A stretch of 63,900 bases of DNA, filler included, from Stramenopiles sp. TOSAG23-3 (taxonomy: Eukaryota): NCBI GenBank assembly GCA_900128585.1. It is 4 parts of 4 records of this genome, joined end to end, with 100 filler letters (N's around TTAATTAATTAA, not from the genome) between each part and the next. Parts side by side here need not be neighbours in the genome. Positions count along the whole stretch, not along the records: positions 48,025 to 63,900 come from LT642509.1; 3 more parts are not named here. The stretch is one strand, 5' to 3'. Position 1 is the first letter of the stretch; each line of letters starts with the position of its first letter. The notes beneath the pieces were generated by a model, which saw only the letters and a program-made list of their open reading frames with translations, was not told where the DNA came from and ran no database searches. Positions 1 through 63,900 of this stretch are shown in pieces. The position numbers were made by a program, and so were the translations under genes.

Positions 1-79
1 AATCGTTGGCTCGATCCATGGCAACCCGCAGGCGCAAAAAGAAAAGGAAAAAAGCAAAAAAGAGGCTCGTAATTGCCAA
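1..79. repeat. 79-bp exact inverted repeat, left copy (partner 15850-15928)
   Basis: Bases 1-79 are the exact reverse complement of 15850-15928, i.e. both ends of the first contig. Confidence 0.95.
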
Positions 80-3000: not shown

Positions 3001-6000
3001 AGCACCTGGAAACATGGCTGTTACAGGTTCCAACGCAAGTGGCTGCCGTTTCGCGCTCCATTATGTTCTTTCATGTAGTCGAACGGGCGCTTCGAGGCGG
3101 GAAAACGGCCGAGCTGGTCATGGTTAGAAATTCTATCACTCAAGAAATCAGATGTACTTCTGACATGTTGCGAAATTTTGCCGACAATGCAGCTTCCAAA
3201 GAAGAGGCGTTACGGGCATACCATGCGGCCAGCACCTACATACTGACGTTGTTGGGATGCAAAGACAGTGTCCAGCAGTTCATTGATAAAGGCACACAAA
3301 GCCTGGGCGCCTTCGAAGTACAGGCCCAGTTTCGCCATGTTTTGTTGGAAACAAACCCACGGTCGCCAAAAAAGTTAAATGTGAACATGGGCATATTGGC
3401 AAAGCATAAATACACTTCAGGAAAGCGCGGCAACTCCGCTGGGGGGGGTTCCGGGATAAAGAAAAAACTCAAGCCGCTTCCGATGATGGAGAAAGGCCGC
3501 CGAATCGAGTGTCGAATGCTTGGGTTTCGCCGTCACTTCTCCCTGGAATACTATGGGATATTTTCTCGTGTAGTTGTCACACCACTTACTGAACGCTGCC
3601 AACGAGCCATGATGACGTCCATGCGCTACTGTGTGTGTGCAATGTCTGTTGGAGAGGATGGGTGGGGGAAAACAGAAATAGCGAAGGACATGGCGACATT
3701 GCTCGGCACCCTATTTTTAACATTCAAGTTATCAAACGCGACCACGATGGAAAACCTTCGATCAATACTGGCAAGCGTCTGCGCAAATGCCGCATGGTGC
3801 AGTATTGACAACTTTTGCTACGTGCAAAAGGGTGTGCTGGCGTTGCTGGCAGAGGCAATCGGTCCGTTGCAGCGCGCCGCATTGGCCGGAGCGTCGTCTG
3901 TCAATATTGAAGGGGTCTCAAGCAAACTGAAGTTTGGTTGGGGGGTTCACTTTACAAGCAGTCCACAGCCATTGCGTGACATTGGCATACCGCCGAGTTT
4001 ACGAACGTTGCTTCGCATCACCAAGTTTCAGGCCCCTGCCCGATCGGTGGTGTTGAACTCTCTTCTCGTCGCAAATGGGCACTCAAATGCGCAAAAATTG
4101 GCCGAGAAGGTGACGTTGTTTCTCACGAGGGCACAGTTGGAATTTCCGGGACGTAAAGAGTGTTTTGGACTTCGACACGTGCGTCTAGCATTGGACGAAT
4201 GCAGCACCCGTAGTATTACCCACCGGGATAGTGTAAAACACAGTAAAGACGTTGAATTCTTTCACGCTCTGCTTCGAAAAGTGAACGTGCAGTTTGACAT
4301 TTTTGACCAAACTCGCTGCTGTGAAATAATGGACACGGTGATGCCTGGGCTTGGGTTTGGGGAAGATGACACCCTGCAGCCTCTGGATTACTCTATTATA
4401 AAGAACCAGATGGAAAATAAATACCTAGTTTGCGGAGACAACCACTTGCGCACTTTCCAGGGTATGTACGAGTGCATATCGGCGGGGCCGGCGAACATGA
4501 TTGTAGTTGGACCGGCTGGTTCCGGTAAGAGTACGTACATAAATTTCTTGGCACAAGCCATGTCTGAGTTTGAGCGCGTCTTTGTCGCAAACCTTGTTGA
4601 GTCGGAGAACGGCGAATCAAAGAAATTGAAAGAAAAGTTGAGAAAGCGTCCAACAGCGGAACGGGAAGGCACAGGATTGTCGTCGTCTTCTGAAGAAGAG
4701 GACGAAGAAGAATCTGAATCCGACAGTGCGTGCGACGAGGACAACCTACAATACGGGAACGTGCTTCGGGGCACGGTCAACTTGCAATACCTTCAGCCAT
4801 CTTCGGTGTCGTTTGATGAGTTTTTTGGGTACTTTGATAGTGAATACGCAAACAAGTGGGTCGCTGGTATTTTTTCTACCATGTCGGCCCGTTTTAGTGC
4901 AAACAAAGTGGGCTTTGCCGGGCTAAAATCTGTAACAAAGTACAGCCGCAAGTGGATAGTGATCGATAGCTGTGTATGCGGCCAAACGTGGATGGAAGTG
5001 ATAAGTGCGTGTTTGGATGAAAGCAGGGAGCTTCTGCTCGCGAACGGGGACCGCGTGCCCTTCACCGATAGCATGTCCTTGGTCTTTGAAACCGACAACA
5101 TATCAAATGTATCCCCAGCATTTTTGAGCCGGTGTGGTGTCGTTTCGACGAAGAATGATGTAGTCAAGGACGCCGCTTCTAACGAGCCTCTGCTGTGGGA
5201 ACATTTGATCACTACGTGGATTGGCGAAACCCAAGTGCGTATTCTAACGCTGAGACCGTACGTAAATATTTTGCAGGGGCTGTTTGCCTCTTTGCTGAAG
5301 CCTTGCGTGCAGTTTGCAATGAAAAATGCCGCTTCGTGTCCGGAAAACAGTAACCACAGGCTGCAATTGGACCAAACATGGGTCGTTTCGTCCTTTTTGC
5401 GTCTTTTCGAGTGCTATTTGAAAGATTTTAAAGCGTCAACGTCGGAGGAAGTGAAACGTGAATTGAGAGCAGCCGGGGATAACAAACGGGTAAGCGCTGC
5501 TGTAATCGAACAACTGGAGAAGCCCAAAGTATTGTCCATGCACGCCGATTTAATAATTTCAAATTTACAAAATGTGTTTTTGGAAAGTTTGGTATGGACT
5601 CTGAACCCATTTTTTTCCCGTGAAGGACAAAAACGCTTGGATTCATTCATTAGAGAATTGATTTCGAAATTTCCGAAGAAGAGCCCTGAGCATGTGCAGA
5701 GCATGGCAGAAGACTGGAGGGAGGTTAAGGCCCAATCATTCATGAAAGAAATACCCGCGTTGGATATTAGGCAAGAGGTGGGGTTAATTTCCGACCATGT
5801 CTACAATAGCGACACCCAGTCATGGAAAGCTTTTGTGTCAAATGAATATGCCCATCCGATTCCAGATCACATATCGACTGTAAACATATTTCAGCGGGGC
5901 TACATTATCCCGACGACGGATTATGCTCGCGGGGTTGCCTCTGTCACTAAACTGTTGTTAGGCGGCAACAACGTTGTCGTCGTTGGTGAACTTTCAAGTG

Positions 6001-9000
6001 GAAAACAAGCGATTGTAAACAATGCACTGGGAAACCTAGTCGAAGAAGTGTTTTCAACAACAAAACTTCACTTTGACCAGGGCACTACGGCGAACCTGGT
6101 ACGCGCAAAAATCGACGAAGGCCTGGTAACGTACCGAAAAGGGCTGCGCCAGCCCGCTTCTGAAAAGAGGTTGGTGGTGTATGTTGATGATCTTTCAGCC
6201 CCAGAAATTTTAGGGGTCAAAGACGGAAGCATTCGCCCTTCTCACGAAGCAATGCGAAACTTGCTGGACAAGTCTAGTTGGTTTAGCATGTACCGAGGGG
6301 TATTCGAGGAGACTAAGATTAAAAATGTTGGTTTTGTTGCAACCGAACGCCAGCCATTATCGGATTCAAAATTAAGTTTGCGCGTTGTGCGCCATTTCAA
6401 CGTGGTCTCTACGGACCCCTGGGATAAAACGAAGATGACGCATGTGTTGTCGGCCATGACGACTAAATTTATGCAACGCACAAACCACAGGTTAAGCAAC
6501 CTTGCAGAGACCGTGATGAATTCGGCCATAGACTTGATTGAGCGGTGCAGAAATGAATTTCGACCGTCGCCGCAGCACCCACATTACCAATACTTTGGCC
6601 TTTACGACGCCGCAAGGGTTACCTATGGGGTATTTCGCGTGGCCTCGCGCTCCTTGAAGTACTCTGGCCCTCCCCAAAAAGCCCGACTGTTTGTGCACGA
6701 GGCTCAACGCGTTATTGAAGACCGCATGGTGTCAATGGGTGATGTAAAGAAATTTCGACAGGTGATAGTGCAGAGCACCGTCGGCATTTTTGAAAACTCT
6801 TTGGATTTCGGAAATGACCGAGAGGAAACGATCGTAAACGAAGACTTTTGGCCGCACTGGTTCTACTCTGCTTTGGAGTTGGACCGCAAACCCTGCCTGT
6901 TTACCGACCTTGTAGGCAGCGACGGTTACATTGAGATGACCCAGCTGGCAAAAATTCAAACTGCCATAAACGTGGCATGCGAATTGATGAACGAAAAATC
7001 AGAGGAAGAAGGGTTGCCCCCAGTTGAAATAATCCCTTTCAAATTTACAGTCGTCCATCTGTTTCGGGTGTGCCGCATTCTGAAAGACACTCGTGATCAC
7101 CTCTGCCTTACCGGTCAGGCGAGCACGGGGAAACATACGGTTTTAAAATTAGCTGCCGAAATGTTAAAACTGCAGTATGTGCCCATTGACCTCGGGAAAA
7201 TTTTACGAGACGGGAAGAAGGGGTGGAGAGAGACCATCAAGCCGGTTTTACGGAAAGCGGCAAGTGGAGAGCGCCTTCTGCTGACGGTCAACTTGAATTC
7301 GACAGCGGACTACGTGTTCCGTGATTTGTACAATATCCTCAAACCGGGAACAGTTTTGGAGATGTTTGACGGTGCAGAGCTGGAGGAGATAGACCTACGC
7401 TTTCGTGACGATGCTATCGACGCAAACACAATGATAACATCCGAGTTGACCACTGAACATGTGCTACAATATTTTCAGGACACCTGTTGCGCCAACATAA
7501 AGTTTGCTATGTGCACCAGTGGGACGAGACATATGTTTGATATGTGGAACATGTACCCCACGCTGCCGCAACTCTTTGTCACAGACTGCTTTTATTCCTG
7601 GGACGAAACGACCCTAAGGTATGCAGCAGAGGAAATCTTCAAAGGATCTTCGTCTGCGCGCCTAAGCAAAAATACGATAAGCGCTGTCGCCGATTGTGCA
7701 ATTGGCATCCACAAGTGCGTCGAGGTCGCTGCAGCGCGCAACGACCTTGCAATGTCACAGAGAGATTTCTTAGGAATGTGTTATTTGTTTCGAGAATTTA
7801 CGGATAACTTTTTCGATGAAAGCGTCGAGACGAAAAGTAAGTACGAATTTGCCCTTGCGAAATTAAGCGAAACGGAAGATGAAGTTGCATCCATGAAAGA
7901 AGAAATCGCAGGCATGAAGCCTCTGCTGGACCGTAAAATTGAAAAGGCAGACGCCGTCATGAAAACCGTCACTGCGGAGAGGTCTGTTGTCACGGGTCAT
8001 GTCCGTGCTGTGCGAGACGACGAAGCCGAAATTGAAAGGCAAAACAAAGATGCGACTGCAAAGCGAGAGTTTTGTAAAGAGAAACTTAGGGAGGCTATGC
8101 CGACGCTAAATTTGGCAATTGACGCAATTAGGCAATTGAGCAAGAAAGATTTGGAAGAGGTGAAATCGCTGAGAAATCCTCCCGCGAAGGTAAAGACTGT
8201 GATGGAGGCCGTTTGTATTATGCTTGGTCTACCGCCGCGAAAGGTAAAGGACCCTCAGGACAAAACGAAGAAAATCGACGACTACTGGGCAAGCTCGCAG
8301 GCTATCCTGGGGAATGCAAACGCATTAAAGCAATCGTTAGAGCAGTACCACAACCACCACGATATTCGGGACAATGTAATTCAAAAGATAGAGATAGAGT
8401 ACCTGACCTTGGAACACTTTAATCCCGAAGAAGCCCGAAAAGCCAGCATTGCGTGCGAAGGACTGTGCAAGTGGGTTATTGGAATCGTTAAATACTATCG
8501 CGTTGCACAGTCCATAAAACCGGTGAAGGCGGCGCTGAAGGAAGCCGAAGAAGACGTAAAGTTTTCCTTGCAGGTGCTTGAGCAGAAGCGGAAGAATGTA
8601 AAAATGGCGGAGAAACGCTTGAAACAGTTGGAAAAACAATTGGACAGGGCATCGACTGAGAAGCAAAAATTGCAGGCGGAGGTAAAGGAGCTTTCGGGGA
8701 AAATTAAAAATTCCACGGACATGATCATCCGCCTAGAAACAGAACGGCGCCGATGGGAAGACGCGTTGATGGACTTGAACGTCGGGAACGAAACCATTCC
8801 TGCGGACAGTTTGCTTTCAGCTGCTTACGTTGCATACTGTGGACCATTTAGTGCGGAAGCGAGGACGGGCTTGTTTCAAACGTGGGGAGAGCTAACAACG
8901 GCTCACGAATTGGTGTCCACCATGTCCAATGATGGGGACGACGAGGATTCAGGCGACGAGAAGAACCCTGCCGACCTCAAGTTCGCATTCGATCCGAAGC

Positions 9001-12000
9001 GCATCTTAATTGCAGAGGAAAACATATTGGAGTGGATGTCCACAGGGCTTCCGAGCGACAACGGCTGCATTGGCAGTGCAACCATTCTGGAAAACAATGT
9101 TAAGAAGTGGCAATGGCCTTTGGTAGTCGACCCAGACGGCTACGCAATGTACTGGATGAAGAATTACTACGAAAGCGACGTCGGCCCTCCAATCATAGCA
9201 AACGTGTCAAACGACGCAAAGTTGCGTGAATCGTTGCGCAAAGCTGTCACGGAAGGGCGCACCATCATTGTTGACCTCGGGACAGGCACCGCCATCGGTG
9301 AGAAGTTTATTCCCTTCCTCGCATTGGCTGGAAACTTGGAACAGCCTACTCCATGCGAAGTTGTCGTGTTTGAAGGCGAATCTCTCAACCTTGACTTGGG
9401 CTTTAAATTAGTGTTTGTGACAAAAACACCGTTGCCGCAGGGAACTTCATGCTCTCAACCAAGTGTTCTTTTCTCCCTGAGTGAAGATGCACTGACAGAA
9501 GAAATAATGTGGATTATGTCTTACGACCTGTTTCCCGAACAAAGTGCACTCAGGCAGCAGGCGATCATTGACAACACCAGGCTGCACGTGCGAAAGAAGC
9601 AGCTGCAAAATGAGGTCTTGGAGTTATTAAACGAGAGCGAAGGGAGCATGATGGAGGATGAGCGGCTCATCAACGTGCTGAACGATTCCAGGCGCAAGAC
9701 GATGGAATGTATTGGCCAAATAAAGACCACCAATAACAAACGTCTGCAAAATACGGAATGCATCGAAGTGTTCCGGCCTTTGGCAGAGCGGGCGTTTACC
9801 CTCTACAAAGTCCTGTCGCGGATGAATTTGGTTAAAAAGGCGTATAGTTACTCGCTCGTTTGGTTTATATGTATACTGTTGAATGTAATCAGGGACGACC
9901 CGGACCTTGTCGTCAAAGAAGAAGAAAACACGGAGGGAGGGGGGGGCGACCAGAGTCGTCCAAACAGCAAGAGTCAGCGAAAAAAACCGAGGAAAGAGAA
10001 AACGGTCGAAAGGATCGCGTCCGCCGTCAGTCTGATGGTGCACGTAAATACGATAACAAAAGCCGACTACTTGGCAAAAAAGGAAAAGAAAACTGGAGAG
10101 GCTGAGGAAGAGCCCGAGGGCAACGCTGGGGAGCCTGCTGACAGCGCGGGAGGGGAGGAATCGGCGAAACCAACCGTTTATCAGCTGCAAGTGTTGAAAG
10201 TGAAAGAAGCGATAGAGATGCTGACCAGTAGGGTAGTTAAAAAAGCCGGTTCAGGAGTATTTTTGGAAGACCATGTTTCGTTCTTGGCCGGGATCTCTAT
10301 CGAGCTGCTTGACTTCTCGATGGAACAGCGAAAGCTCCTGTCCACAGAAGTCTCCTCTTTAAGTCAGGACGCGCTCTGCAGAATGATTGATGAGGGAAAG
10401 GATATTCAAATGCCGTCTTTCTTTCCGTACAGCTTGGAGGAGCGCGAAAAGCTACCCGTGCCCCTCACTGTCCAAACTTGGATGACCGACGAGCAATGGG
10501 GGCGTATCCTGTACGTAGCAAGAGAGCTTCCGGGTGTCTTCAGCTCTCTCCCATCAAACATAGAAAAAAGCGCGCCCGTTTACGCAAAAATGTGGCACGT
10601 TATTTTCATGTCCTCGACTCCGTTGGAGGAAGTGTTCCCGCCTCCATGGGACAAGACGCTGACGTTGAAGGACAAGGTCGTGCTGCTTCGCGCCATATGC
10701 CCTCAGTCATTCGATGGCAGTGTTTTGCCATCCCTGATAGCGGTGACTTTGGGAGACGACACGCTCGACAACATTTTCCAAAGTCTGCAGGACGTGCATG
10801 ATATGTCTTCAATGACGCTTCCAGCCTCGCCGATATTGATGACGTTGGAATCCGGTGGGTCAAAGGACCCATTGCAGTCTATTGAAGGGTTTTACGCCCG
10901 CTGGCAAAGGTTTTACGGTGGTCCCAACACGGCGACTCGAATTTTTCTGGGGGACGGTCACAAAAGCATTGTGCGCGCTACAGAGGAGTTGAAGCGCGCG
11001 GTATCGAACGGGAATTGGGTCATTCTGTGTAATTGTCATTTAGAGCCCCAGTGGCTTCCGAAACTGAGCGCGTTTGTTCACGAAGTGCTGCACAAAAAAT
11101 CGTCGGATGTGAACCCTAGATTTCGTTTGTGGATGATATCGGTTGTTGACGAGAACTTTCCGTCGTATTTGGTGCAACAGTCGATTCGAGTGGCCATCAG
11201 TGAGATACACAGCATTCGCCACACCTCTCGGGGTATATTTCAAGAGTTACAAGCCCCAGATTTTGACGTAGATATTATGTACAGCGTCTCTTCAAACGAT
11301 GCCGATGGGCCTGTGCTTCAGGATATCTTCCCCGTGGGGATGGACAAAAAATTTGATGACGCTATTCGTAGTGCATATGCTGAGCCCGCTTCGTCCAAAC
11401 GAAAAGAATACTTCAGGCGCTTGACTTACGGGCTGGCACTGTTCCACGGGGTGATGGAGCAGAGAGCATCCTACGGGGTCTTGGGGTGGGAAGATGCGTT
11501 CATTGAGGCCGATTTAGAACTGGCAAAAGAAGTACTTGCCATCCACATGCGGCGATGGGAAGTCTTGTGTCACACTCGTGAAATCAAAGTGATTGCGGAA
11601 ACGGATGGCCCAGCGCCCCCTATCCCACCGGCGCATTTGGTCGACCCCGACTACAACTTTTATGAATGGTGCGCCGGCGTCATTGGAGACGTCCTCTATG
11701 GCAACAGTTTGACGGATCCCAACGATTACCAGAGTGTTCGCTTGATTTTAAAATCCATCGTGTGCGAGGACGCATTGCGGGAACGATCTTTGCCTTACAA
11801 GTGGGGCATGCGCGGAGAGTCTGGAGAACCGTTTGGAATCGGAACCATGGTGGAAGCAATCGTGCCTGCCGGCAAGAGAAAGAAAAAGCGCAAACGTAAA
11901 AACGAAGACCCAATGGCTGGTACTATTGCTAGTCTTGATCGTTATAAGCAGCATATCAACCGATTGCCAATAAGCACAAGCGGGGAAACGGTGGGACTGG

Positions 12001-13076
12001 GGCCAAATGCATCCCAAGAGTATGCCCGCTTGTCTCTGAAAAATACTGTGCAGAACTTAAGCGCCATTTATTCCAAACCGGAGACCAGCGGCACCAGGAA
12101 CAACCTATTCTCCGGTGTTTTGGTAGTTCAGGCGTTGGACGAACTTCCCGCACGTTTAAAGGAGCAGCTTGCGATCGTCGAACTGGAAAGTATCGAGGCC
12201 GTGATTGTTAACCGCGAGGTATTGCTTCTTAACAAGCTGCTCGCGCATTTCAAAAATGCTGTCCATGACTTGGATTCTGCCGTGACGGGTGCAACCTCTT
12301 TCACGAGGGCCCACCTGTCCGCGTTGCAGACTTTGGAGAAGGGTCAAGTTCCTCCGGACTGGTTGGGGGACTTTACCTACCGCTTTACTCAGTCTGGAAG
12401 GCGCAGGGTTCCTCTCCGGTACTGGCTGTCGCATTTAAAATGCAGAGTGGACTATTTCAACAGCATACTCGGCGGAAACACATCGTTCCTGAAAGATATT
12501 CGTTTGGGGTACTTGTTGAGGCCTGTTCACGCGTGCCAAGATTTGTTGGGGGGCGAGATTGGGAATGAATATAAACACTGGGGGACCACGGGCCAGAAGC
12601 GTGCGCCAGACGATGCGTACGTTTTCACGGGCATGTACATGGATGGTGCACAGTACAGGCACTTGAACGAAAAAGAGTACGAAGCAGGATCTTCTGTATT
12701 TTTCACGGAAATCAAGGAAAGCGCTATGTACTCGCACGTCGCTTCCCTGTACGTCACGAAAAACAACGCATTGGTTTCAGAGGACGTCAGCAGTGCACAG
12801 CCCCAAAGCGATCAGTTTACGTACCAGTGCCCTGTGTATATTACGTCGGACCGCAATCGCCTGAATGGGGACGATGGGTCCAACAAGCTATTTTCCATTC
12901 CCTTGCCTTGCTGCTCTCCGGAGGCCAAAGCGCTGCTGGAAGCTGGACAGGCCAAGGGCACAGAGGAGTCAAAGAAGACAGCGTTGGCGAACTATCTGGG
13001 CGCCGATGATCTGAAAAGGCGCAACGTCGCGATTTCTTGCTACGTACACCCGGACGAGGCGTTCGTCATGATTTAG
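6..13076 (+). CDS. Divergent dynein heavy chain (axonemal-like), 5'-truncated at the contig start
   Basis: 4356-codon uninterrupted ORF with no ATG start. Tail/linker motifs LPIIKELRNPAMRARHW and LEYYG..RVVVTPLTERC. P-loop-like motifs GEDGWGKT, GPAGSGKST, GELSSGKQ and GQASTGKH. Stalk/MTBD LSKKDLEEVKSLRNPPAKVKTVMEAVCIML. AAA6 region GNWVILCNCHL...FRLWM. C-terminal YQCPVY. Confidence 0.93.
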   Translation: MARSMATRRRKKKRKKAKKRLVIANKGRKVKSKRRSMKWNLASSKIRSKVKAGVPVVGGTVGVQLSTCVRHVSEVENIMKFQGFVARSTDVLTDAAAYLVNKMVEPLFKIKLTVSTDGKGLCQFTPPLIEFEKGIKRVVSHLATIGVDIEPVNIDILQPTTNPSPRDERGHFFSAVRSAVTPDEAAVLHRSRTLMALLRGNMAYLGSLVLAMQTFKEFFVLDMASYVDKFRGTIKESTRTAVLKAQLEKVDFLQGEADRIKGTLVDTLWLHAFEIDCKDFKNHLHGNARAMKNLLLRRIDSDMREHMRVLSKRFGTYYDSLAIWPKNIEEFDNLKSSLDAFQRMHKESEVAVSSLTEQLEGLENRFFGVTENDYDMYWHARGWPYRLQHAKDNVLASMRKFQKRFEEELRHQKRVFMEEIDRLGLDFRGIHEKGVAQWREAEAVCDEISLLEDRLDGAVEEAEMIRSREQILGWEHDVNFGNAIEMREGMKPFNELWSKVAMWERQMPEWMDGPFLSINSESATEFVRQCWRDMYRLQRVFDQHDKYTEPLKVADRLKGALEGFKQYLPIIKELRNPAMRARHWMDLSIELNTTIRVDNSLTLRRLLADNMLEHQEAIKDISKVASRELKIEDALADIEATWNISGVCPATPEQVSTPFYFRFVLLDEIGSYGISNISEVTAILDEQSIQVQELESSLYAKPFNENILRLKEMQASMQTILEDWSFVQECYVSLYPQYLSGLLAKIPGVPAEYQKIDEQWRNTMDVLRTKDVKFEPPAMRFIELVEIGEDVSESKKIGESIMDGMQKYFLHMRSVCPRLYLLSDKQCFQMLALSKNPSFFHPLMRVLFPGTKRFELATRVKIRQEMEEVTDSESDTDFSGEEYTGSEESDSSEEDQENIMFREELRTVNIDLSKFGENFSASIVSCSGMYNEQIKLFEEVDLCDRRTKKIFPLEKWVANLETVSKRSLLEKIYDQMIALDEIIADMDATEEEHYETALKHLETWLLQVPTQVAAVSRSIMFFHVVERALRGGKTAELVMVRNSITQEIRCTSDMLRNFADNAASKEEALRAYHAASTYILTLLGCKDSVQQFIDKGTQSLGAFEVQAQFRHVLLETNPRSPKKLNVNMGILAKHKYTSGKRGNSAGGGSGIKKKLKPLPMMEKGRRIECRMLGFRRHFSLEYYGIFSRVVVTPLTERCQRAMMTSMRYCVCAMSVGEDGWGKTEIAKDMATLLGTLFLTFKLSNATTMENLRSILASVCANAAWCSIDNFCYVQKGVLALLAEAIGPLQRAALAGASSVNIEGVSSKLKFGWGVHFTSSPQPLRDIGIPPSLRTLLRITKFQAPARSVVLNSLLVANGHSNAQKLAEKVTLFLTRAQLEFPGRKECFGLRHVRLALDECSTRSITHRDSVKHSKDVEFFHALLRKVNVQFDIFDQTRCCEIMDTVMPGLGFGEDDTLQPLDYSIIKNQMENKYLVCGDNHLRTFQGMYECISAGPANMIVVGPAGSGKSTYINFLAQAMSEFERVFVANLVESENGESKKLKEKLRKRPTAEREGTGLSSSSEEEDEEESESDSACDEDNLQYGNVLRGTVNLQYLQPSSVSFDEFFGYFDSEYANKWVAGIFSTMSARFSANKVGFAGLKSVTKYSRKWIVIDSCVCGQTWMEVISACLDESRELLLANGDRVPFTDSMSLVFETDNISNVSPAFLSRCGVVSTKNDVVKDAASNEPLLWEHLITTWIGETQVRILTLRPYVNILQGLFASLLKPCVQFAMKNAASCPENSNHRLQLDQTWVVSSFLRLFECYLKDFKASTSEEVKRELRAAGDNKRVSAAVIEQLEKPKVLSMHADLIISNLQNVFLESLVWTLNPFFSREGQKRLDSFIRELISKFPKKSPEHVQSMAEDWREVKAQSFMKEIPALDIRQEVGLISDHVYNSDTQSWKAFVSNEYAHPIPDHISTVNIFQRGYIIPTTDYARGVASVTKLLLGGNNVVVVGELSSGKQAIVNNALGNLVEEVFSTTKLHFDQGTTANLVRAKIDEGLVTYRKGLRQPASEKRLVVYVDDLSAPEILGVKDGSIRPSHEAMRNLLDKSSWFSMYRGVFEETKIKNVGFVATERQPLSDSKLSLRVVRHFNVVSTDPWDKTKMTHVLSAMTTKFMQRTNHRLSNLAETVMNSAIDLIERCRNEFRPSPQHPHYQYFGLYDAARVTYGVFRVASRSLKYSGPPQKARLFVHEAQRVIEDRMVSMGDVKKFRQVIVQSTVGIFENSLDFGNDREETIVNEDFWPHWFYSALELDRKPCLFTDLVGSDGYIEMTQLAKIQTAINVACELMNEKSEEEGLPPVEIIPFKFTVVHLFRVCRILKDTRDHLCLTGQASTGKHTVLKLAAEMLKLQYVPIDLGKILRDGKKGWRETIKPVLRKAASGERLLLTVNLNSTADYVFRDLYNILKPGTVLEMFDGAELEEIDLRFRDDAIDANTMITSELTTEHVLQYFQDTCCANIKFAMCTSGTRHMFDMWNMYPTLPQLFVTDCFYSWDETTLRYAAEEIFKGSSSARLSKNTISAVADCAIGIHKCVEVAAARNDLAMSQRDFLGMCYLFREFTDNFFDESVETKSKYEFALAKLSETEDEVASMKEEIAGMKPLLDRKIEKADAVMKTVTAERSVVTGHVRAVRDDEAEIERQNKDATAKREFCKEKLREAMPTLNLAIDAIRQLSKKDLEEVKSLRNPPAKVKTVMEAVCIMLGLPPRKVKDPQDKTKKIDDYWASSQAILGNANALKQSLEQYHNHHDIRDNVIQKIEIEYLTLEHFNPEEARKASIACEGLCKWVIGIVKYYRVAQSIKPVKAALKEAEEDVKFSLQVLEQKRKNVKMAEKRLKQLEKQLDRASTEKQKLQAEVKELSGKIKNSTDMIIRLETERRRWEDALMDLNVGNETIPADSLLSAAYVAYCGPFSAEARTGLFQTWGELTTAHELVSTMSNDGDDEDSGDEKNPADLKFAFDPKRILIAEENILEWMSTGLPSDNGCIGSATILENNVKKWQWPLVVDPDGYAMYWMKNYYESDVGPPIIANVSNDAKLRESLRKAVTEGRTIIVDLGTGTAIGEKFIPFLALAGNLEQPTPCEVVVFEGESLNLDLGFKLVFVTKTPLPQGTSCSQPSVLFSLSEDALTEEIMWIMSYDLFPEQSALRQQAIIDNTRLHVRKKQLQNEVLELLNESEGSMMEDERLINVLNDSRRKTMECIGQIKTTNNKRLQNTECIEVFRPLAERAFTLYKVLSRMNLVKKAYSYSLVWFICILLNVIRDDPDLVVKEEENTEGGGGDQSRPNSKSQRKKPRKEKTVERIASAVSLMVHVNTITKADYLAKKEKKTGEAEEEPEGNAGEPADSAGGEESAKPTVYQLQVLKVKEAIEMLTSRVVKKAGSGVFLEDHVSFLAGISIELLDFSMEQRKLLSTEVSSLSQDALCRMIDEGKDIQMPSFFPYSLEEREKLPVPLTVQTWMTDEQWGRILYVARELPGVFSSLPSNIEKSAPVYAKMWHVIFMSSTPLEEVFPPPWDKTLTLKDKVVLLRAICPQSFDGSVLPSLIAVTLGDDTLDNIFQSLQDVHDMSSMTLPASPILMTLESGGSKDPLQSIEGFYARWQRFYGGPNTATRIFLGDGHKSIVRATEELKRAVSNGNWVILCNCHLEPQWLPKLSAFVHEVLHKKSSDVNPRFRLWMISVVDENFPSYLVQQSIRVAISEIHSIRHTSRGIFQELQAPDFDVDIMYSVSSNDADGPVLQDIFPVGMDKKFDDAIRSAYAEPASSKRKEYFRRLTYGLALFHGVMEQRASYGVLGWEDAFIEADLELAKEVLAIHMRRWEVLCHTREIKVIAETDGPAPPIPPAHLVDPDYNFYEWCAGVIGDVLYGNSLTDPNDYQSVRLILKSIVCEDALRERSLPYKWGMRGESGEPFGIGTMVEAIVPAGKRKKKRKRKNEDPMAGTIASLDRYKQHINRLPISTSGETVGLGPNASQEYARLSLKNTVQNLSAIYSKPETSGTRNNLFSGVLVVQALDELPARLKEQLAIVELESIEAVIVNREVLLLNKLLAHFKNAVHDLDSAVTGATSFTRAHLSALQTLEKGQVPPDWLGDFTYRFTQSGRRRVPLRYWLSHLKCRVDYFNSILGGNTSFLKDIRLGYLLRPVHACQDLLGGEIGNEYKHWGTTGQKRAPDDAYVFTGMYMDGAQYRHLNEKEYEAGSSVFFTEIKESAMYSHVASLYVTKNNALVSEDVSSAQPQSDQFTYQCPVYITSDRNRLNGDDGSNKLFSIPLPCCSPEAKALLEAGQAKGTEESKKTALANYLGADDLKRRNVAISCYVHPDEAFVMI

Positions 13077-58604: not shown

Positions 58605-59183
58605 ATGTCCAACGAGTCTTCGTACGAAAAAATGTCTGATCGAGGGTCGACGCAAGTGTCGGCAGATAAAAAGAATAAATCTTGTATATATCGGTTTGCA
58701 TGTCACCGCGGCACTTTGTGCTCCGCGGGCTTCATCTTAGGCGCCTTGACGGTAGTAATTTTAGGTGCAACTGTATTCAATCCAAACCAAGGTAGTGGTA
58801 GTAGTAGTTCCGGAAAAAATAGCACTTCAGTTGTTGGTTGCAGTCGATGGGGAGACGTTGAAAAAGTTGTCAAGATTGGTGCAAAACAGTTCTTGGCCCA
58901 TGAGAGTACATGCGGAAAATCTGCACTGGGAGCGAAAGAGAAGACAGCAGAATGTATGGTGAAGGCAACGGGCATATCATGGGACTGCGCAGATTGCTAT
59001 GGCGAGCAAACTGCCTGCGGAGCCTTACACTGCCCCCTCGTCTGTGCGTTTGGTGCCGATGATAAATGCACTGCTTGCGTTTGTAAAAACTGTAGAGCGG
59101 CGTTTCTGAAGTGCAATAAATTACCGTGCACGTTGCTGCCTGCGAATGATTGCAAAGACTGCCCAGGCTATCAACCGTTTTGA
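58605..59183 (+). CDS. Cys-rich single-pass (type II-like) membrane protein, hypothetical
   Basis: TM segment AGFILGALTVVILGATVF, a Ser linker, then about 16 Cys in about 110 aa. Confidence 0.78.
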   Translation: MSNESSYEKMSDRGSTQVSADKKNKSCIYRFACHRGTLCSAGFILGALTVVILGATVFNPNQGSGSSSSGKNSTSVVGCSRWGDVEKVVKIGAKQFLAHESTCGKSALGAKEKTAECMVKATGISWDCADCYGEQTACGALHCPLVCAFGADDKCTACVCKNCRAAFLKCNKLPCTLLPANDCKDCPGYQPF

Positions 59184-59360
59184 ATGTTGTAACAGATCTA
59201 TTCACTTAGTCTTGACTATCATTCTCATGTCTACTCCATGCATGATCCGAATCGGTCTGTCGATTTGTGTCGATGTCAAAAGATCCGTAGTCAACTTCCT
59301 CATCCGATGTCTCACTCGTAAATGAATCACGTAATTTAAAAAAAAAAAACGTATATTATA

Positions 59361-59440
59361 TTTAAACAAGAAAATAATTGGCTGTTATTTAAAGTAATTA
59401 ATTAAAAACAAGAAAATTGGCTGTTATTTAAGTAATTAAA
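59361..59440 (+). repeat. Dispersed ~30-bp intergenic element, tandem copies 5 and 6
   Basis: TTTAAACAAGAAAATAATTGGCTGTTATTTAAAGTAATTA followed by TTAAAAACAAGAAAATTGGCTGTTATTTAAGTAATTAAA. Confidence 0.87.
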
Positions 59441-59589
59441 TTTAGCTTCAAGTAATTAATTAAGTGATTAAATTAAAATGTACTTTGCGAACTGAACTCT
59501 ACTGGTGTGTTTTTAGTTTCATAATCAATATTCCTTGTCACTTAGTATAATTTTTTTAAATTATATTAAATTATTATATTAGACCCCAT

Positions 59590-60074
59590 TTACAACAAAA
59601 GTTGTACAACAATTTTTCGCCGGAACGTGTGTATATTATGTCTACAAAGGTTCATATCATCAAGTCTCTAACTCTAAATATATAACAATTTATCTTGCAC
59701 TCCCATTCTCCTACGTTACTCTTCATTTTGTTGTACCAGAAAAATTAGGGTTCCTTGTCTCAATGCTATTTGATGCTAAGCTAACCCTAACTATATTGGC
59801 ATCAGACCCTGTACTTCCATTGTCATACAAGGGCAGTTGCATTTTGTTGTACCAGTACCCTAATTGCTCATAATATACACGATTTGAAATATGTTGTAAT
59901 GGTATGACCATGTACACAAATTAGGGTTAAAAATAATATACACGCCTTCGTACAACAATTTTTAATAGGAATATTATAGTTAATTTTTAATTGAATACAA
60001 AATAATATACACACATAAAAAATAATATTTTTTGTTGTACCAGATGTTGTACCGAAAAAGGTCTGGTACAACAA
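59590..60074. repeat. Cluster of TTGTTGTAC(CAG) motifs in direct and inverted orientation
   Basis: Copies at about 59591, 59601 (palindrome GTTGTACAAC), 59724, 59840, 59950 (-), 60031, 60045 and 60063 (-). Confidence 0.8.
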
Positions 60075-60684
60075 TCAAGATATGGAAATAGCGTTGTAGT
60101 CCTATGAACCTGTATTTATACGAATTAATTGATAATGATGTTATACTTCAAATTCCCAATTGTACATATTTTATATAGGCAATATCTGTTTATTCTTAAT
60201 TCTATTCCCCTGTTGATGTTTATCGAAACAAATCAAGTCCACCATTTGGCTGTTGCAGTATATATACTGAAATTTTCGACAGCAACTCTGTTAGAGTAAA
60301 TTGCAACAGGGCGGCAAGGTATTGCTGCTTGTAGTCGCGGGCCTCAGTCTCCACCATCGTTTGCCGTTCCTAGCCTTCCTAGCCGTAATGCTGCTAGGAA
60401 CGATGCACCAGAAAACAAAAAGAACCACCGTTTTTTTTTTTTTTTCCCTTGCTGTGATGATGTTCTGCGAAGGAGACCACTGAGCTGAAGAATAATATTA
60501 TTATTATTTTTTATAATATATTATTATTATTGTTTGCGTCTTTGTCGTGCATTTGTGTTCAACCCAGCTGTAGATGAACTGGACGACATGTTTCGAGCAA
60601 TTTCCAAAAAATCGCTTCTGGGCAAGCATAATACACTACACGAGACTGCGATGGCCATCACCACAATGACCACCACCCAAAAAG

Positions 60685-62649
60685 ATGTCTCAATATTACT
60701 CGTCAATAAAAAGGTTTCTAAGATTCTACTATGATTCATCCGATCTATGTGAAAGGGAGAGGGAACGATTGTTTGAACTAGTGACGAGTTACTGCAAGAG
60801 CAACTATAGACGAATTGGTTCTGGGGAGGATCCTGATAGGGAGGCGGAGCCTGTGAAAGAATTATTGCGCATTAAACCGATACACATAGCCAGATGGCTG
60901 AAAAAGATTGCCTATGGTACTGAGGAACCAGGTCCTGGGCAGCGCCCATTATACGCCCGAGCAAATACGTTATATGCTCATAAACGTTCCCTGTCGTATT
61001 TCATGCCAAGAAACCTAGCACCATGGGATTTTAATGGAGATGATGGAGTGGGGGGCAAAGGGGTGGGAAACCCGGCAAAGGGCCGTATACTTCAAAAATT
61101 GATTAAGGATGTAGAAGTATTTGAAATGAAAGGCCATGGTGCGAAAGCCAAAGATGCTCGTGCGTTAACTTGGCAGGAATGGTTAGACACCCTGGAGCTT
61201 GCCCAGAGGAAGGTGATGCCCCGCGAGAAAGAAATTGTAAAATTTTTGCATCCAGCCTTACTTCTTACCCAATTTCACCTAGATGGACGTCTTGACGATA
61301 TGGTATTATTAGATATAGATGAGTTTCGGCCTTATCAAAAGCAATCAAAATCAATTTTAGCCTGCAGTATCAAAGCATCAAAGAATATTCACGAAAAATC
61401 AGATTGGCACTGGCAAGTACTAATCGGATGTGGAGAGAGCAAGAATTGCGCCATTATAGCAGTGGCAGCTTACGTCGGATTCTTCAATGATGAAAACGCA
61501 TTAATGATTCACCCTGACCGCATTACGGAACGTACTGGTACCGGGGAAAGAAAGAAGGAACCAACACTACCAGGTTTTTTTCGTCTCTCAAAGGATCAAA
61601 GGTGGGGGAAATCGTCCATTTCTACTCGTCTCAATGAAATATTGCAAGTTAAGTTGGCCCTCTCAGGTAACGTTTCTACTCATTCAGTGAGGAAAACATC
61701 AACAGAGACAATGCAGCGAGCAAAAGTTCGACGAGAATGTTCTGATCAACGTGGTCGATGGAAGACCAGGCATACGGACAAAAAAGCGTCAGCGTCAAAC
61801 ATATACCATATGAGTTTTCAGCGCTGGCTAGATTTAAATGGAGCAGTTGCTCTTGTTAAAGGCAGACCGGTACGCTACGAAGTTGAAAACTTAACAGATG
61901 AAATTGTTCGACAGGTATTGCCAGCGTCAAGACGTTTGATTAATGGTGTTGGTTTCCTTTTATGTAGTGCAGCCTTGTGGGCATACCATAATTCCCGAAC
62001 ATTACTCCCAGATTCACTGATTACACGTATTGAAAAGTTTGGAGCGGATCGATTGGAATCTAAACGGGTTGTAGTGAAAGCTGATGATGATAATTTCATT
62101 GACTTCGATGAAGAACTGCACCGTGCAATAAAACAAAGTACGGAACGACAGTTGTTAAATAAAGTTTATGGAAGTCAAGAAACATTAAAACGGAAGTACA
62201 ATGAGCAAAATGATGGATTCAGAACAGAAATGAAACGCCTCAGAAAATCGATGAAGTCTGTTACACAGCGCATTGATCGTGTTGTACTATACCACACCAA
62301 CAGCCGTCGTGCACCACAAGACAATAATATAAGACCAGAAGTCATGTCTGATTGCACAAGTTTGCATGAGTTTTGGTTGGAATACCAATTTGGAATAAAC
62401 GGTAACATGCCTGTAAGCAAGTTTTCAAAGGCTGGGAAACGCAAAAATAAGCATAAAATTTCCTTGCGCATGAAACTAGTAAAGGCTGTTAAGTTGCTCT
62501 TACCGCATACTCCAGCAATTAACGGTTGTGAACGGTTGGAAATCGTCTATAAATTTGACGATGGGATGGCCCGTTGCCTCCGTGAAATCGGAAGAGAATT
62601 AAAAGCAACTCCTGTTCTGCCAAAATATTTTACTAAGTATCCTATATAA
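60685..62649 (+). CDS. Crypton-like tyrosine recombinase with a C-terminal GCR1_C-like DNA-binding domain
   Basis: N-terminal KRSLSYFMP..PWD...GNPAK...LIKDV...ARALT. Catalytic-type residues GRLDD (R, 61288), THSVRK (HxxR, 61681), RGRW (61750) and NIY (Y, 61804). C-terminal SLHEFWLEYQFGINGNMPVSKF. Confidence 0.85.
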   Translation: MSQYYSSIKRFLRFYYDSSDLCERERERLFELVTSYCKSNYRRIGSGEDPDREAEPVKELLRIKPIHIARWLKKIAYGTEEPGPGQRPLYARANTLYAHKRSLSYFMPRNLAPWDFNGDDGVGGKGVGNPAKGRILQKLIKDVEVFEMKGHGAKAKDARALTWQEWLDTLELAQRKVMPREKEIVKFLHPALLLTQFHLDGRLDDMVLLDIDEFRPYQKQSKSILACSIKASKNIHEKSDWHWQVLIGCGESKNCAIIAVAAYVGFFNDENALMIHPDRITERTGTGERKKEPTLPGFFRLSKDQRWGKSSISTRLNEILQVKLALSGNVSTHSVRKTSTETMQRAKVRRECSDQRGRWKTRHTDKKASASNIYHMSFQRWLDLNGAVALVKGRPVRYEVENLTDEIVRQVLPASRRLINGVGFLLCSAALWAYHNSRTLLPDSLITRIEKFGADRLESKRVVVKADDDNFIDFDEELHRAIKQSTERQLLNKVYGSQETLKRKYNEQNDGFRTEMKRLRKSMKSVTQRIDRVVLYHTNSRRAPQDNNIRPEVMSDCTSLHEFWLEYQFGINGNMPVSKFSKAGKRKNKHKISLRMKLVKAVKLLLPHTPAINGCERLEIVYKFDDGMARCLREIGRELKATPVLPKYFTKYPI

Positions 62650-62718
62650 CGTACATATACTTTTTATGTAGTTTTCAAGTAATTAAATACAAATTATATA
62701 GTATCATATGCTTTAAGA

Positions 62719-63900
62719 CTAAAAAATACTCTTAAAATCCTGTCTATTCACAACCTCAAATTCCAGGGTTAATTTTGGGGTGACAACCATGTCATTATCG
62801 ACATCGGCTCCAAAGATGTTCTCGTCCATGCAATCTCCGCCGTCAATTGAGAAACGCACTGTGCGGTTACTGCCCCATTCACTCACTATCTCCATTTCCT
62901 GGTTATCCTTTACTCTGTACATCCGAAAAGCGGCATGAGCATCGTCGATACCGTACTGTTTATGTTGCTTTGTTACAAAACTTTTTTCAGGATTACGGCA
63001 AATTAAAGCAAAATTAAAATTTGTAAGATCCGGGGTGAAAAGAAAGGCCTGCTCGTAGTTAGTTTGTTGTCCATTTTCGTACTTAAAGTCGCGCACGTAT
63101 TCAAAAGAATTTGTTTCCTCAACTTCAGCCTTCTCGTATCGGCCCCCAACCCACTTCTTCAATACTACGTCATGTTTCGTTGTTGTCTTATCGTTGAAAT
63201 TACCTGGTCTGTACCCCATATTGTCATAGTCGCACCCAAAAAATGTTTTTTCTGTGACGGTGTGCGCCTTTGGGTTCAGTTTACGCAATATAAAATCTCC
63301 ATGCTCCCAAAGGTTTGTGACAGTGCGCGGTTTCATTGGTGACTCTCTAAACGTCTGGTGATTAATATACTCCGCCCTTACCCATCCCGATAGAATTCTG
63401 ATCCTTAATTGTTTTAACAGATAAACAACGTCGTCTCCAAAGTATCCATCATTTTTACGAATCCATCTGCTGGGTGCAGCCGGAGGGGCAGCCGATTCAA
63501 AGCCAGTTCCCCATCCAGAGGCTTCAGGGGCGTCAGGGGCAGGGTCTTCGCTCAGAATTGGGGTCTGGCCACCATCGTCCGAAAGAATTGGAGTGGAATT
63601 CTGTTTGTCATTTTGAGCCAAACGCCGGTCGAACTCATATTCTTGGGCTTGCAAGATTCTTGCAGTTTCTGTGTCTTCATCTTCTTCCACCAGCCTTTGC
63701 CGTTTTGCCGCACCGGCATCATCTACAGGGTCTTCGCTCAGAATTGGGGTCTGGCCACCATCGTCCGACAGAATTGGAGTGGATTTCTGTTTGTAATTTT
63801 GAGCCGAACGCCGGTCCAACGCATCGTTCCATTCTTTGTTCCTCTCTGACCCCACCACTTGGCGTGCTCTTTCAATGGTTGTTTCATTGTTTGCCTTTTC
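62719..63900 (-). CDS. Hypothetical protein, 5'-truncated; possible cargo of the Crypton element
   Basis: The frame stays open to the window end (EKANNETTIERARQVVG...). Internal 91-bp duplication and a globular-looking C-terminal region of about 250 aa. Confidence 0.75.
   Translation of the reverse strand, partial: EKANNETTIERARQVVGSERNKEWNDALDRRSAQNYKQKSTPILSDDGGQTPILSEDPVDDAGAAKRQRLVEEDEDTETARILQAQEYEFDRRLAQNDKQNSTPILSDDGGQTPILSEDPAPDAPEASGWGTGFESAAPPAAPSRWIRKNDGYFGDDVVYLLKQLRIRILSGWVRAEYINHQTFRESPMKPRTVTNLWEHGDFILRKLNPKAHTVTEKTFFGCDYDNMGYRPGNFNDKTTTKHDVVLKKWVGGRYEKAEVEETNSFEYVRDFKYENGQQTNYEQAFLFTPDLTNFNFALICRNPEKSFVTKQHKQYGIDDAHAAFRMYRVKDNQEMEIVSEWGSNRTVRFSIDGGDCMDENIFGADVDNDMVVTPKLTLEFEVVNRQDFKSIF

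What the first reader, a model, noticed from the sequence alone, without database searches (positions are those of the whole stretch)
59590..63900. Apparently intact Crypton-type tyrosine-recombinase element with an unrecognised convergent ORF
Seen: an uninterrupted 654-aa ORF with R, HxxR, W and Y residues in tyrosine-recombinase order and a GCR1_C-like tail, followed 69 bp later by a tail-to-tail ORF of similarly AT-rich composition. Known: CryptonS elements of oomycetes and diatoms encode YR plus GCR1_C, and some carry a second, SET-domain ORF. Here I see no SET motifs in the visible C-terminal part of the second ORF. Inference: this may be a new, possibly active Crypton family carrying a different cargo gene.
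Basis: partly seen in the sequence, partly recalled or inferred. Interest (0 to 1): 0.72.

Follow-up and report, generated by a model that had tools for sequence, protein, structure and literature searches.

The report
Mobile Crypton transposon; neighbour isn't cargo
A 3.2-kb jumping gene of the known Crypton type sits at different places in different ocean samples and is also found with its two ends joined at a 4-base TATA site, likely the circle it is predicted to move through, while the neighbouring unknown gene is likely a resident host gene and not its cargo.

Summary
The 654-aa ORF (60685-62649) is real and intact: a Crypton-type tyrosine recombinase with R202, K233, H333, R336, W359 and Y374 and a weak GCR1_C-like tail. 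The cargo idea fails. Other copies define the element as 3,201 bp, bounded by a 4-bp TATA core. It starts at 59575, and ORF2 lies outside it. The window copy stops at 62673 and lacks the last 109 bp, including the right core, so it likely cannot excise, or the join is an assembly chimera. The family is mobile: near-identical copies have different flanks, and one insertion has a readable single-TATA empty site. Contigs from three metagenomes join the right end to the left end (two read through a single TATA), either the predicted circle or a head-to-tail dimer. Shortened copies carry pieces of DIRS-like retrotransposons, and one such chimera has two right flanks. ORF2 is a roughly 655-aa orphan gene that occurs without the recombinase. 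This scan noted joined Crypton ends before in other genomes. Verdict: new family of a known kind.

The parts
59575..62673 (+). Crypton-type element as present in the window: 3,099 bp of a 3,201-bp family; the last 109 bp with the right TATA core are missing
   Evidence: 98.8% identical over this span to full-length copy L055; same span on the X11 contig, which continues in other DNA (table 8)
59575..59578 (+). Left 4-bp core TATA (attL-like crossover site)
   Evidence: Flanks change right before this core in window, L054, L055, C77; L055 has TATA at both ends and the empty form has one
59601..60071 (.). Subterminal repeated motif TTGTAC(A/C)A(C/G) at 59601, 59731, 59847, 60035 and 60063 (inverted); one more lies in the missing right end; predicted protein-binding sites
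   Evidence: 7 hits in the non-coding ends of L055 against a shuffled mean of 0.11 (max 2 in 500 shuffles); 0 in window 1-59574
60685..62649 (+). 654-aa tyrosine recombinase ORF, intact
   Evidence: family profile hits Cre, E 1.5e-4; ESM Atlas neighbours are Crypton-like clusters, 0.96-0.98
61288..61806 (+). Catalytic residues R202, K233, H333, R336, W359, Y374
   Evidence: R, HxxR, W and Y align with the Cre motifs; K233 is assigned by conservation only
62347..62499 (+). GCR1_C-like C-terminal segment (aa 555-605), predicted DNA binding
   Evidence: E 0.027, below cut-off; 39 of 60 family members hit GCR1_C at E<=0.001, none of the 7 closest
62672..62673 (.). Break: the element is fused to ORF2's 3' flank across a 2-bp TT overlap (deletion or assembly chimera)
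   Evidence: element copies match up to 62673; ORF2-side contigs of X3 and X5 match from 62672
62719..63900 (-). ORF2: 3' 393 codons of a ~655-aa orphan gene, outside the element; holds a 110-bp direct repeat at 186-bp spacing (63529-63638 / 63715-63824)
59202..59574 (.). Left flank: pieces of a high-copy host repeat into which the element inserted
   Evidence: 25-mer at 59405-59429 has 819 exact copies in G000, 0 for the reversed control; other pieces recur on C77

Best explanation
This is a right-truncated copy of a 3.2-kb Crypton-type DNA transposon family that occurs at several insertion sites bounded by a 4-bp TATA core and likely moves by tyrosine-recombinase excision into a circle and re-integration; the convergent ORF2 lies outside it and is likely a resident host gene. 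SHOWN: intact recombinase ORF; family length and ends; TATA on both sides of a full copy against one TATA at the empty form; different flanks for near-identical copies; right-end-to-left-end joins through a single TATA; shortened copies with retrotransposon DNA inside. INFERRED: the 654-aa protein binds the end motifs (TAGAC next to the core, TTGTAC(A/C)A further in), recombines the two TATA cores to release a circle with the junction CTATTAA-TATA-TTA(G/T), and recombines that junction with AT-rich, near-palindromic targets like (T/C)-TATA-AT, leaving no true target duplication. The window copy has lost its right site, so it would be immobile in cis but could supply enzyme in trans to non-autonomous copies.
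For: Recombinase. Full element 3,201 bp, TATA to TATA, in L055, 98.8% identical to the window. Empty site: the L055 flanks joined at one TATA match, across the join, the other arm of the inverted repeat it landed in (86%) and two places on own contig C2319 (84%, 86%). Four different right flanks (L054, L055, C3569, C329) and five left contexts (window, L054 with only 6 bp, L055, C77, C6620) break exactly at the core; C6620 reads TATG. End-to-end join: 2 of the 4 metagenome contigs found (L053, L056) read CTATTAA-TATA-TTA(G/T), and contig 19 of run X4 joins 62673 to 59570 with the same 100-letter spacing. Intact ORFs elsewhere: P0294 and P0302, 654 aa, 4 and 9 differences; the X11 copy has 6 substitutions in the ORF and no stop. 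ORF2 unlinked. ORF2 cluster members sit on contigs of 25,291, 13,332 and 11,305 bp, the same lengths as members of the neighbouring host genes; none of the 15 of 30 listed YR cluster members does. Literature model: PMC3212892 and PMC9977147 (passages).
Against: Contigs cannot tell a circle from a chromosomal head-to-tail dimer. For the join to be assembled at host depth of about 4 in X4 it must be fairly common, which fits a standing dimer at least as well as a transient circle (the tool warns that depth is no copy number). In L053 and L056 the DNA before the right end is retrotransposon-like, so assembler joins at the repeat are possible. No joined form was found in the own assembly. The two ends are only weakly inverted-symmetric (33 and 51 of 1000 shuffles score as high). 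The YR of L055 is broken by a stop and a frameshift. The contig-length argument for ORF2 synteny is circumstantial. I saw no empty allele of this exact locus base by base. No activity was tested.
Confidence: 0.85

Rival explanations
1. The end-to-end joins are chromosomal head-to-tail dimers, made when one copy integrates at the end of another, and not free circles. This is compatible with the same enzyme and site.
For: The join is common enough to assemble in three metagenomes. The target pattern (T/C)-TATA-AT resembles the element's own ends. An earlier scan note reports Crypton dimers in a diatom (e1-7527201, unchecked).
Against: No join in the own assembly (incomplete genome). L053 and L056 carry different left-end variants and different upstream DNA, so more than one molecule type is involved.
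Confidence: 0.45
2. The missing right end at 62673 is an amplification or assembly chimera of a single-cell genome, and the real copy at this locus is complete.
For: 2-bp overlap at the join. Among the pieces listed (31 records shown, 4,643 pieces not shown), none from the four other runs crosses 62673. The assembly is fragmented (7,088 contigs).
Against: The YR and ORF2 lie on one contig with their host neighbours in the order suggested by the contig lengths of other assemblies. Truncated remnants of this family are frequent in the genome (C329, C77, C6620, C2319), so real deletions do occur.
Confidence: 0.3
3. One reading: ORF2 is a cargo gene carried inside a larger Crypton.
For: 69 bp between the stop codons; ORF2 has no known domain and no relatives outside its own 90% cluster.
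Against: The family's right end is defined and lies before ORF2 in 4 of 4 right-end copies with flanks. ORF2 is joined to other DNA in X3 and X5. No element end on ORF2's 5' contig C3186 or on its partial paralog's contigs. The C5364 relative (35% identical) has no such ORF in its 430 bp downstream.
Confidence: 0.03
4. The YR is a domesticated single-copy host gene, like yeast Gcr1 or Ndc10.
For: Only one full-length near-identical copy in the own assembly; GCR1_C-like tail.
Against: The catalytic residues are kept, whereas domesticated Crypton genes lose them (PMC3212892 passages). It occurs at different loci in other samples, with precise ends and broken copies.
Confidence: 0.02

Closest known systems
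CryptonS elements of oomycetes and Phaeodactylum tricornutum (Kojima & Jurka 2011, PMC3212892; passages, one results section and supplement 1 read)
   Same: About 3 kb (most listed CryptonS are 2.8-3.9 kb); single YR ORF with a conserved C-terminal region; short direct repeat; non-autonomous derivatives. 17 of 30 atlas hits fall in the no-Pfam set whose best cluster is mostly Oomycota.
   Different: Core is TATA (4 bp), not TATGG, TTACTG, TAATG or CTGTAAG; no C48 peptidase; only 20-25% identical to the wider family, in its own well-supported clade. A direct comparison with Repbase CryptonS was not possible.
CryptonF elements, including the active CryptonF-1_cRei of Chlamydomonas reinhardtii (PMC3212892; PMC9977147, passages read)
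   Same: YR plus a GCR1_C-type tail; insertion by recombination between a short terminal motif and a matching target with a single motif at the empty site; top atlas hit 0.98 is an NDC10_II + GCR1_C cluster.
   Different: No NDC10_II match in 60 of 60 members; GCR1_C below cut-off; 4-bp core instead of 5-6 bp.
Starship elements (bioRxiv 10.64898/2026.09.21.753150; start of abstract and passages read)
   Same: YR-mobilised eukaryotic DNA element; junction of the joined ends taken as the sign of a circular intermediate.
   Different: Starships are giant cargo carriers with DUF3435 captains; this element is 3.2 kb with one gene.
Cre recombinase of phage P1 (PDB 7rhz, 1crx)
   Same: Best solved relative by profile search (E 1.5e-4), R / HxxR / W / Y motifs align.
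   Different: Twice as long, with a coiled-coil-like and a GCR1_C-like tail; site has a 4-bp shared core and weak arm symmetry, unlike loxP (recalled: 13-bp arms, 8-bp spacer).

Membership tests
Crypton (general) | Encodes a tyrosine recombinase with the R-H-R-Y tetrad intact | tested here: met
Crypton (general) | DNA element: no reverse transcriptase or other transposase within the ends | tested here: met
   one long ORF in 59575-62673; Pfam shows no RT; L055 holds only the broken YR frames
Crypton (general) | No TIRs or long direct repeats; 4-6-bp direct repeat at both ends | tested here: met
   TATA at both ends of L054 and L055; only weak inverted likeness of the ends. The window copy itself lacks the right one.
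Crypton (general) | Repeat reflects a target core: one copy at the empty site | tested here: met
   (one insertion tested, L055)
Crypton (general) | Dispersed copies at different loci | tested here: met
Crypton (general) | Extrachromosomal circular intermediate (proposed, not a proven criterion) | tested here: inconclusive
   end-to-end joins in L053, L056 and X4; circle or dimer not separable
CryptonS | YR clusters with Repbase CryptonS | not testable with these tools
   no named CryptonS sequences on hand; atlas neighbours include oomycete and diatom clusters
CryptonS | No GCR1_C domain, but a conserved C-terminal region | tested here: inconclusive
   sub-threshold GCR1_C in this protein; 39 of 60 relatives hit it at E<=0.001
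CryptonS | 5-6-bp terminal repeat, mostly TATGG | tested here: not met
   4-bp TATA against the list
CryptonS | Stramenopile host | not tested
CryptonF | YR plus GCR1_C domain | tested here: inconclusive
   GCR1_C 15.2 bits against cut-off 23; no NDC10_II, which marks the top atlas cluster
CryptonF | 6-bp terminal direct repeat | tested here: not met
Cargo-carrying YR element (Starship-like) | Second gene lies between the element's ends and travels with it | tested here: not met
   ORF2 is outside the ends; only retrotransposon fragments were seen inside derivatives

The most novel reading that the evidence does not exclude
The precise right-to-left joins in three ocean metagenomes are the free circular intermediate long proposed for Cryptons, common enough in wild cells to assemble. 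The enzyme would then be a compact eukaryotic integrase that needs only a 4-bp TATA match and can move 1.5 kb of foreign DNA placed between its ends, as the DIRS-filled derivative with two different right flanks suggests.
Probability: 0.35. Interest if true: 0.62.

Novelty: new member of a known kind. Interest (0 to 1): 0.42.

Why it matters
Cryptons are poorly studied: active transposition was first reported in 2023 (PMC9977147, passages), and a 2026 preprint still calls their circular intermediate a hypothesis (10.64898/2026.09.21.753150, passages). This family gives an intact enzyme with all four site types read from natural DNA (left, right, empty, joined), so the excision and integration model can be tested directly. 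It also adds a distinct recombinase clade from marine plankton. The claim that drew the first score, a new cargo gene, does not hold, and this scan has noted joined Crypton ends in other genomes, so the interest is moderate.

Tried and rejected
Cargo reading of ORF2: rejected (see rivals). Function of ORF2: no Pfam family below E 0.04 for the visible part or E 0.49 for the full protein; 1 hit among 191 candidates of 216-688 aa, from its own cluster (longer and shorter proteins not searched); no usable atlas hit for aa 400-655. A candidate 13-bp direct repeat at 59447 / 62674 (sequence; related family D8/D16) was rejected as a target duplication: it belongs to the high-copy host repeat and lies outside the ends. 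TATGG ends: not present at the boundaries. Internal inverted copy of the junction (lead from e1-7800504 and e1-7880952): none; inverted scores were reached by 24-45 of 200 shuffles. Strong hairpin at the junction: z -1.2 to -2.1 only. Viral collection: no relative of the YR (one peptide pattern) and no right end; prokaryote genomes: no right end. The 14-sequence profile found no recombinase in PDB; the 87-sequence profile did. Pfam did not recognise the inserts of L053 and L054; for L054 the call rests on own-genome relatives with RVT_1, for L053 on recalled motifs only (no hit). Run X11 has no cover over most of ORF2, which proves nothing for a partial genome. No structure model was obtained. 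The tree is the quick one, 47 of 87 rows, midpoint-rooted, without named references. Literature: searches listed no paper that shows a Crypton circle, a Crypton in MAST genomes or a SET-bearing Crypton; I saw listings only, except for the five papers named in the report. Subscription papers (Goodwin 2003), Repbase and preprint supplements were not available.
Full report
Observation. The window is four contigs joined by N spacers; the finding is the end of G000:C106. The 654-aa ORF at 60685-62649 is uninterrupted, and a convergent frame is open from the contig end to 62719; the stops are 69 bp apart. Pfam gives the first protein only a sub-threshold GCR1_C match (E 0.027). A word search found 13 relatives among 8,000 scored candidates, and a profile of them found 4,646 at E<=0.001. 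In 87 aligned members R202, K233, H333, R336, W359 and Y374 are kept in 86, 87, 84, 84, 87 and 87 rows. The 87-row profile matches Cre best among solved structures (E 1.5e-4), with R, HxxR, W and Y aligned. The nearest atlas clusters are Crypton-like: NDC10_II + GCR1_C (mostly Ascomycota), no-Pfam (mostly Oomycota) and GCR1_C (diatom). In a quick tree of 47 of the 87 rows, the protein and six marine relatives form one side of a branch with SH-aLRT 100. GCR1_C is hit by 39 of 60 members at E<=0.001, by none of these seven; NDC10_II by none.

The element's ends. In the own assembly the 4.4-kb query gave 19 matches, one full (itself) and the rest fragments; the protein gave 7, among them a 35%-identical 631-aa open frame on C5364. 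A pattern from the YR's last codons found 4 metagenome contigs. L055 matches 59575-62673 at 98.8% and continues for 109 bp to a second TATA, which makes the element 3,201 bp. L054, C3569 and C329 share that right end and diverge directly after TATA (flanks ATAG three times, ATTT once); window, L054, L055 and C77 diverge directly before the left TATA (TTAT, TTAT, TTTC, TTAC), and the older C6620 copy reads TATG. L055 landed in one arm of an inverted repeat: its flanks joined at a single TATA match the other arm and two places on own contig C2319 across the join. So the TATA is a shared core, as in the model in PMC3212892 and PMC9977147 (passages). A motif TTGTAC(A/C)A(C/G) has 7 hits in the non-coding ends against 0.11 in shuffles and none in window 1-59574. 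The ends are only weakly inverted-symmetric.

Mobility. Run X11 has a 5,802-bp contig with 59575-62673, eight substitutions, no stop in the ORF, and 2,627 letters beyond 62673 that are unlike the window (I inferred the record orientation from a contig that runs over the stretch's start). Two more 654-aa proteins differ by 4 and 9 residues. L055's YR is broken by a stop and a frameshift. L053 and L056 join the right end to the left end through one TATA, and contig 19 of run X4 has the same 100-letter spacing between 62673 and 59570. That is the junction predicted for an excised circle, but a head-to-tail dimer gives the same sequence and contigs cannot separate the two. The own assembly has no such join.

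This copy. It ends at 62673, 109 bp short, fused across TT to ORF2's 3' flank. Without the right core it likely cannot excise, although its ORF is intact. Whether the loss is real or a chimera of single-cell amplification is open: I did not lay the source runs, and no listed piece of the four other runs crosses the join (partial table).

ORF2. The full protein is about 655 aa (P0014), with 15 cluster members; the 12 I aligned to P0014 are 95-99% identical and vary most in patches of the C-terminal part. Its first 175 aa are on C3186, 1.15 kb from a divergent host gene. About 60 aa of the linker are shared with another gene, whose C-terminal part on C6770 is a DUF3825 domain (E 3.5e-17); this shared segment likely broke the assembly. 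No element end lies on C3186, C3664 or C6770. In runs X3 and X5 ORF2's 3' flank is preceded by 38 and 186 letters unlike the window. Members of ORF2's cluster lie on contigs of 25,291, 13,332 and 11,305 bp, as do members of the genes at 55422 and 58605 (the latter on the first two), while none of the 15 listed of 30 YR cluster members does; this is circumstantial support that ORF2 is resident here. Its GC3 (0.447) is nearer the host genes (0.45-0.64) than the YR (0.366). Its role is not resolved; my best guess, at low odds, is a young, fast-changing chimeric gene.

What the family does carry. L054 has both ends, with the YR replaced by 1,484 bp that encode part of an RT-RNase H frame and an overlapping recombinase-like frame. 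Its relatives on own contigs C3226 and C4033 (60% and 44% identical) have RVT_1 domains; the label DIRS-like is my reading of this layout, from recall. C3569 has the same insert-to-element junction with a different right flank, so this chimera likely moved after it formed, although C3569 keeps only 221 bp of the insert. The DNA before the right end in L056 matches C3226 at 99.5% over 204 bp; that in L053 looks retroelement-like by recalled motifs only. Two different inserts join the element at 62591 and 62593, which I cannot explain.

Comparison with what is known. Kojima & Jurka 2011 (PMC3212892; passages, one results section, supplement 1) describe CryptonF as YR + GCR1_C with 6-bp repeats, and CryptonS as without GCR1_C, mostly TATGG, sometimes with a C48 peptidase. 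PMC13465315 (passages) lists DDE, C48 and HTH as second genes. PMC12130899 (passages) added nothing specific. The element meets the general Crypton features I could test; its core fits neither subgroup's typical repeat, and subgroup placement needs Repbase sequences. Earlier notes of this scan report joined or tandem Crypton ends in other genomes; no look-alike of this sequence was noted. Verdict: a new, recently mobile Crypton family with readable recombination sites, no cargo gene in this window; interest 0.42.

Noticed in passing
window 59202-59547 and 62674-62720; pattern at 59405-59429: A very high-copy AT-rich repeat: one 25-mer has 819 exact copies in the 28-Mb assembly, 0 for the reversed control. 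It recurs with other fixed blocks in varying order and orientation; the element type was not identified.
   Followed up: partly
window 62591-62593; L053, L054, G000:C3569: Two different retroelement-like inserts join the Crypton's right part within 2 bp of each other, and the diverged remnant on C2319 seems to start near the same place. A hot spot or a minimal right end; unexplained.
   Followed up: partly
G000:C6770 (L022:607-2028, -) and C3664 (L049:4123-4626, +): A eukaryotic gene with a DUF3825 domain (E 3.5e-17) and a His/Gln/Pro-rich tail shares about 60 aa with ORF2.
   Followed up: partly
G000:C3226 (L059) and C4033 (L060): Retrotransposons with long overlapping RT-RNase H and recombinase-like open frames, DIRS-like in layout.
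   Followed up: partly
G000:C5364 (L032:413-2305, -): A second, distant family of the same recombinase clade (35% identical, 631-aa open frame, near-identical to P0007); its ends were not mapped.
   Followed up: no
L055 right flank and G000:C2319 (L030:7965-8290): A small element with long inverted arms (MITE-like) that served as the Crypton's target.
   Followed up: partly
P0281 (cluster of P0006): A relative of this recombinase is filed as a Flavobacteriales MAG protein; likely eukaryotic contamination of that bin, not tested.
   Followed up: no
window 58605-59183 (+): 192-aa Cys-rich protein with one predicted hydrophobic stretch and no Pfam match, directly left of the insertion.
   Followed up: no
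window 3-13076 (+): A 4,357-aa open frame that looks like an intronless dynein heavy chain (from recall of motifs; not searched).
   Followed up: no
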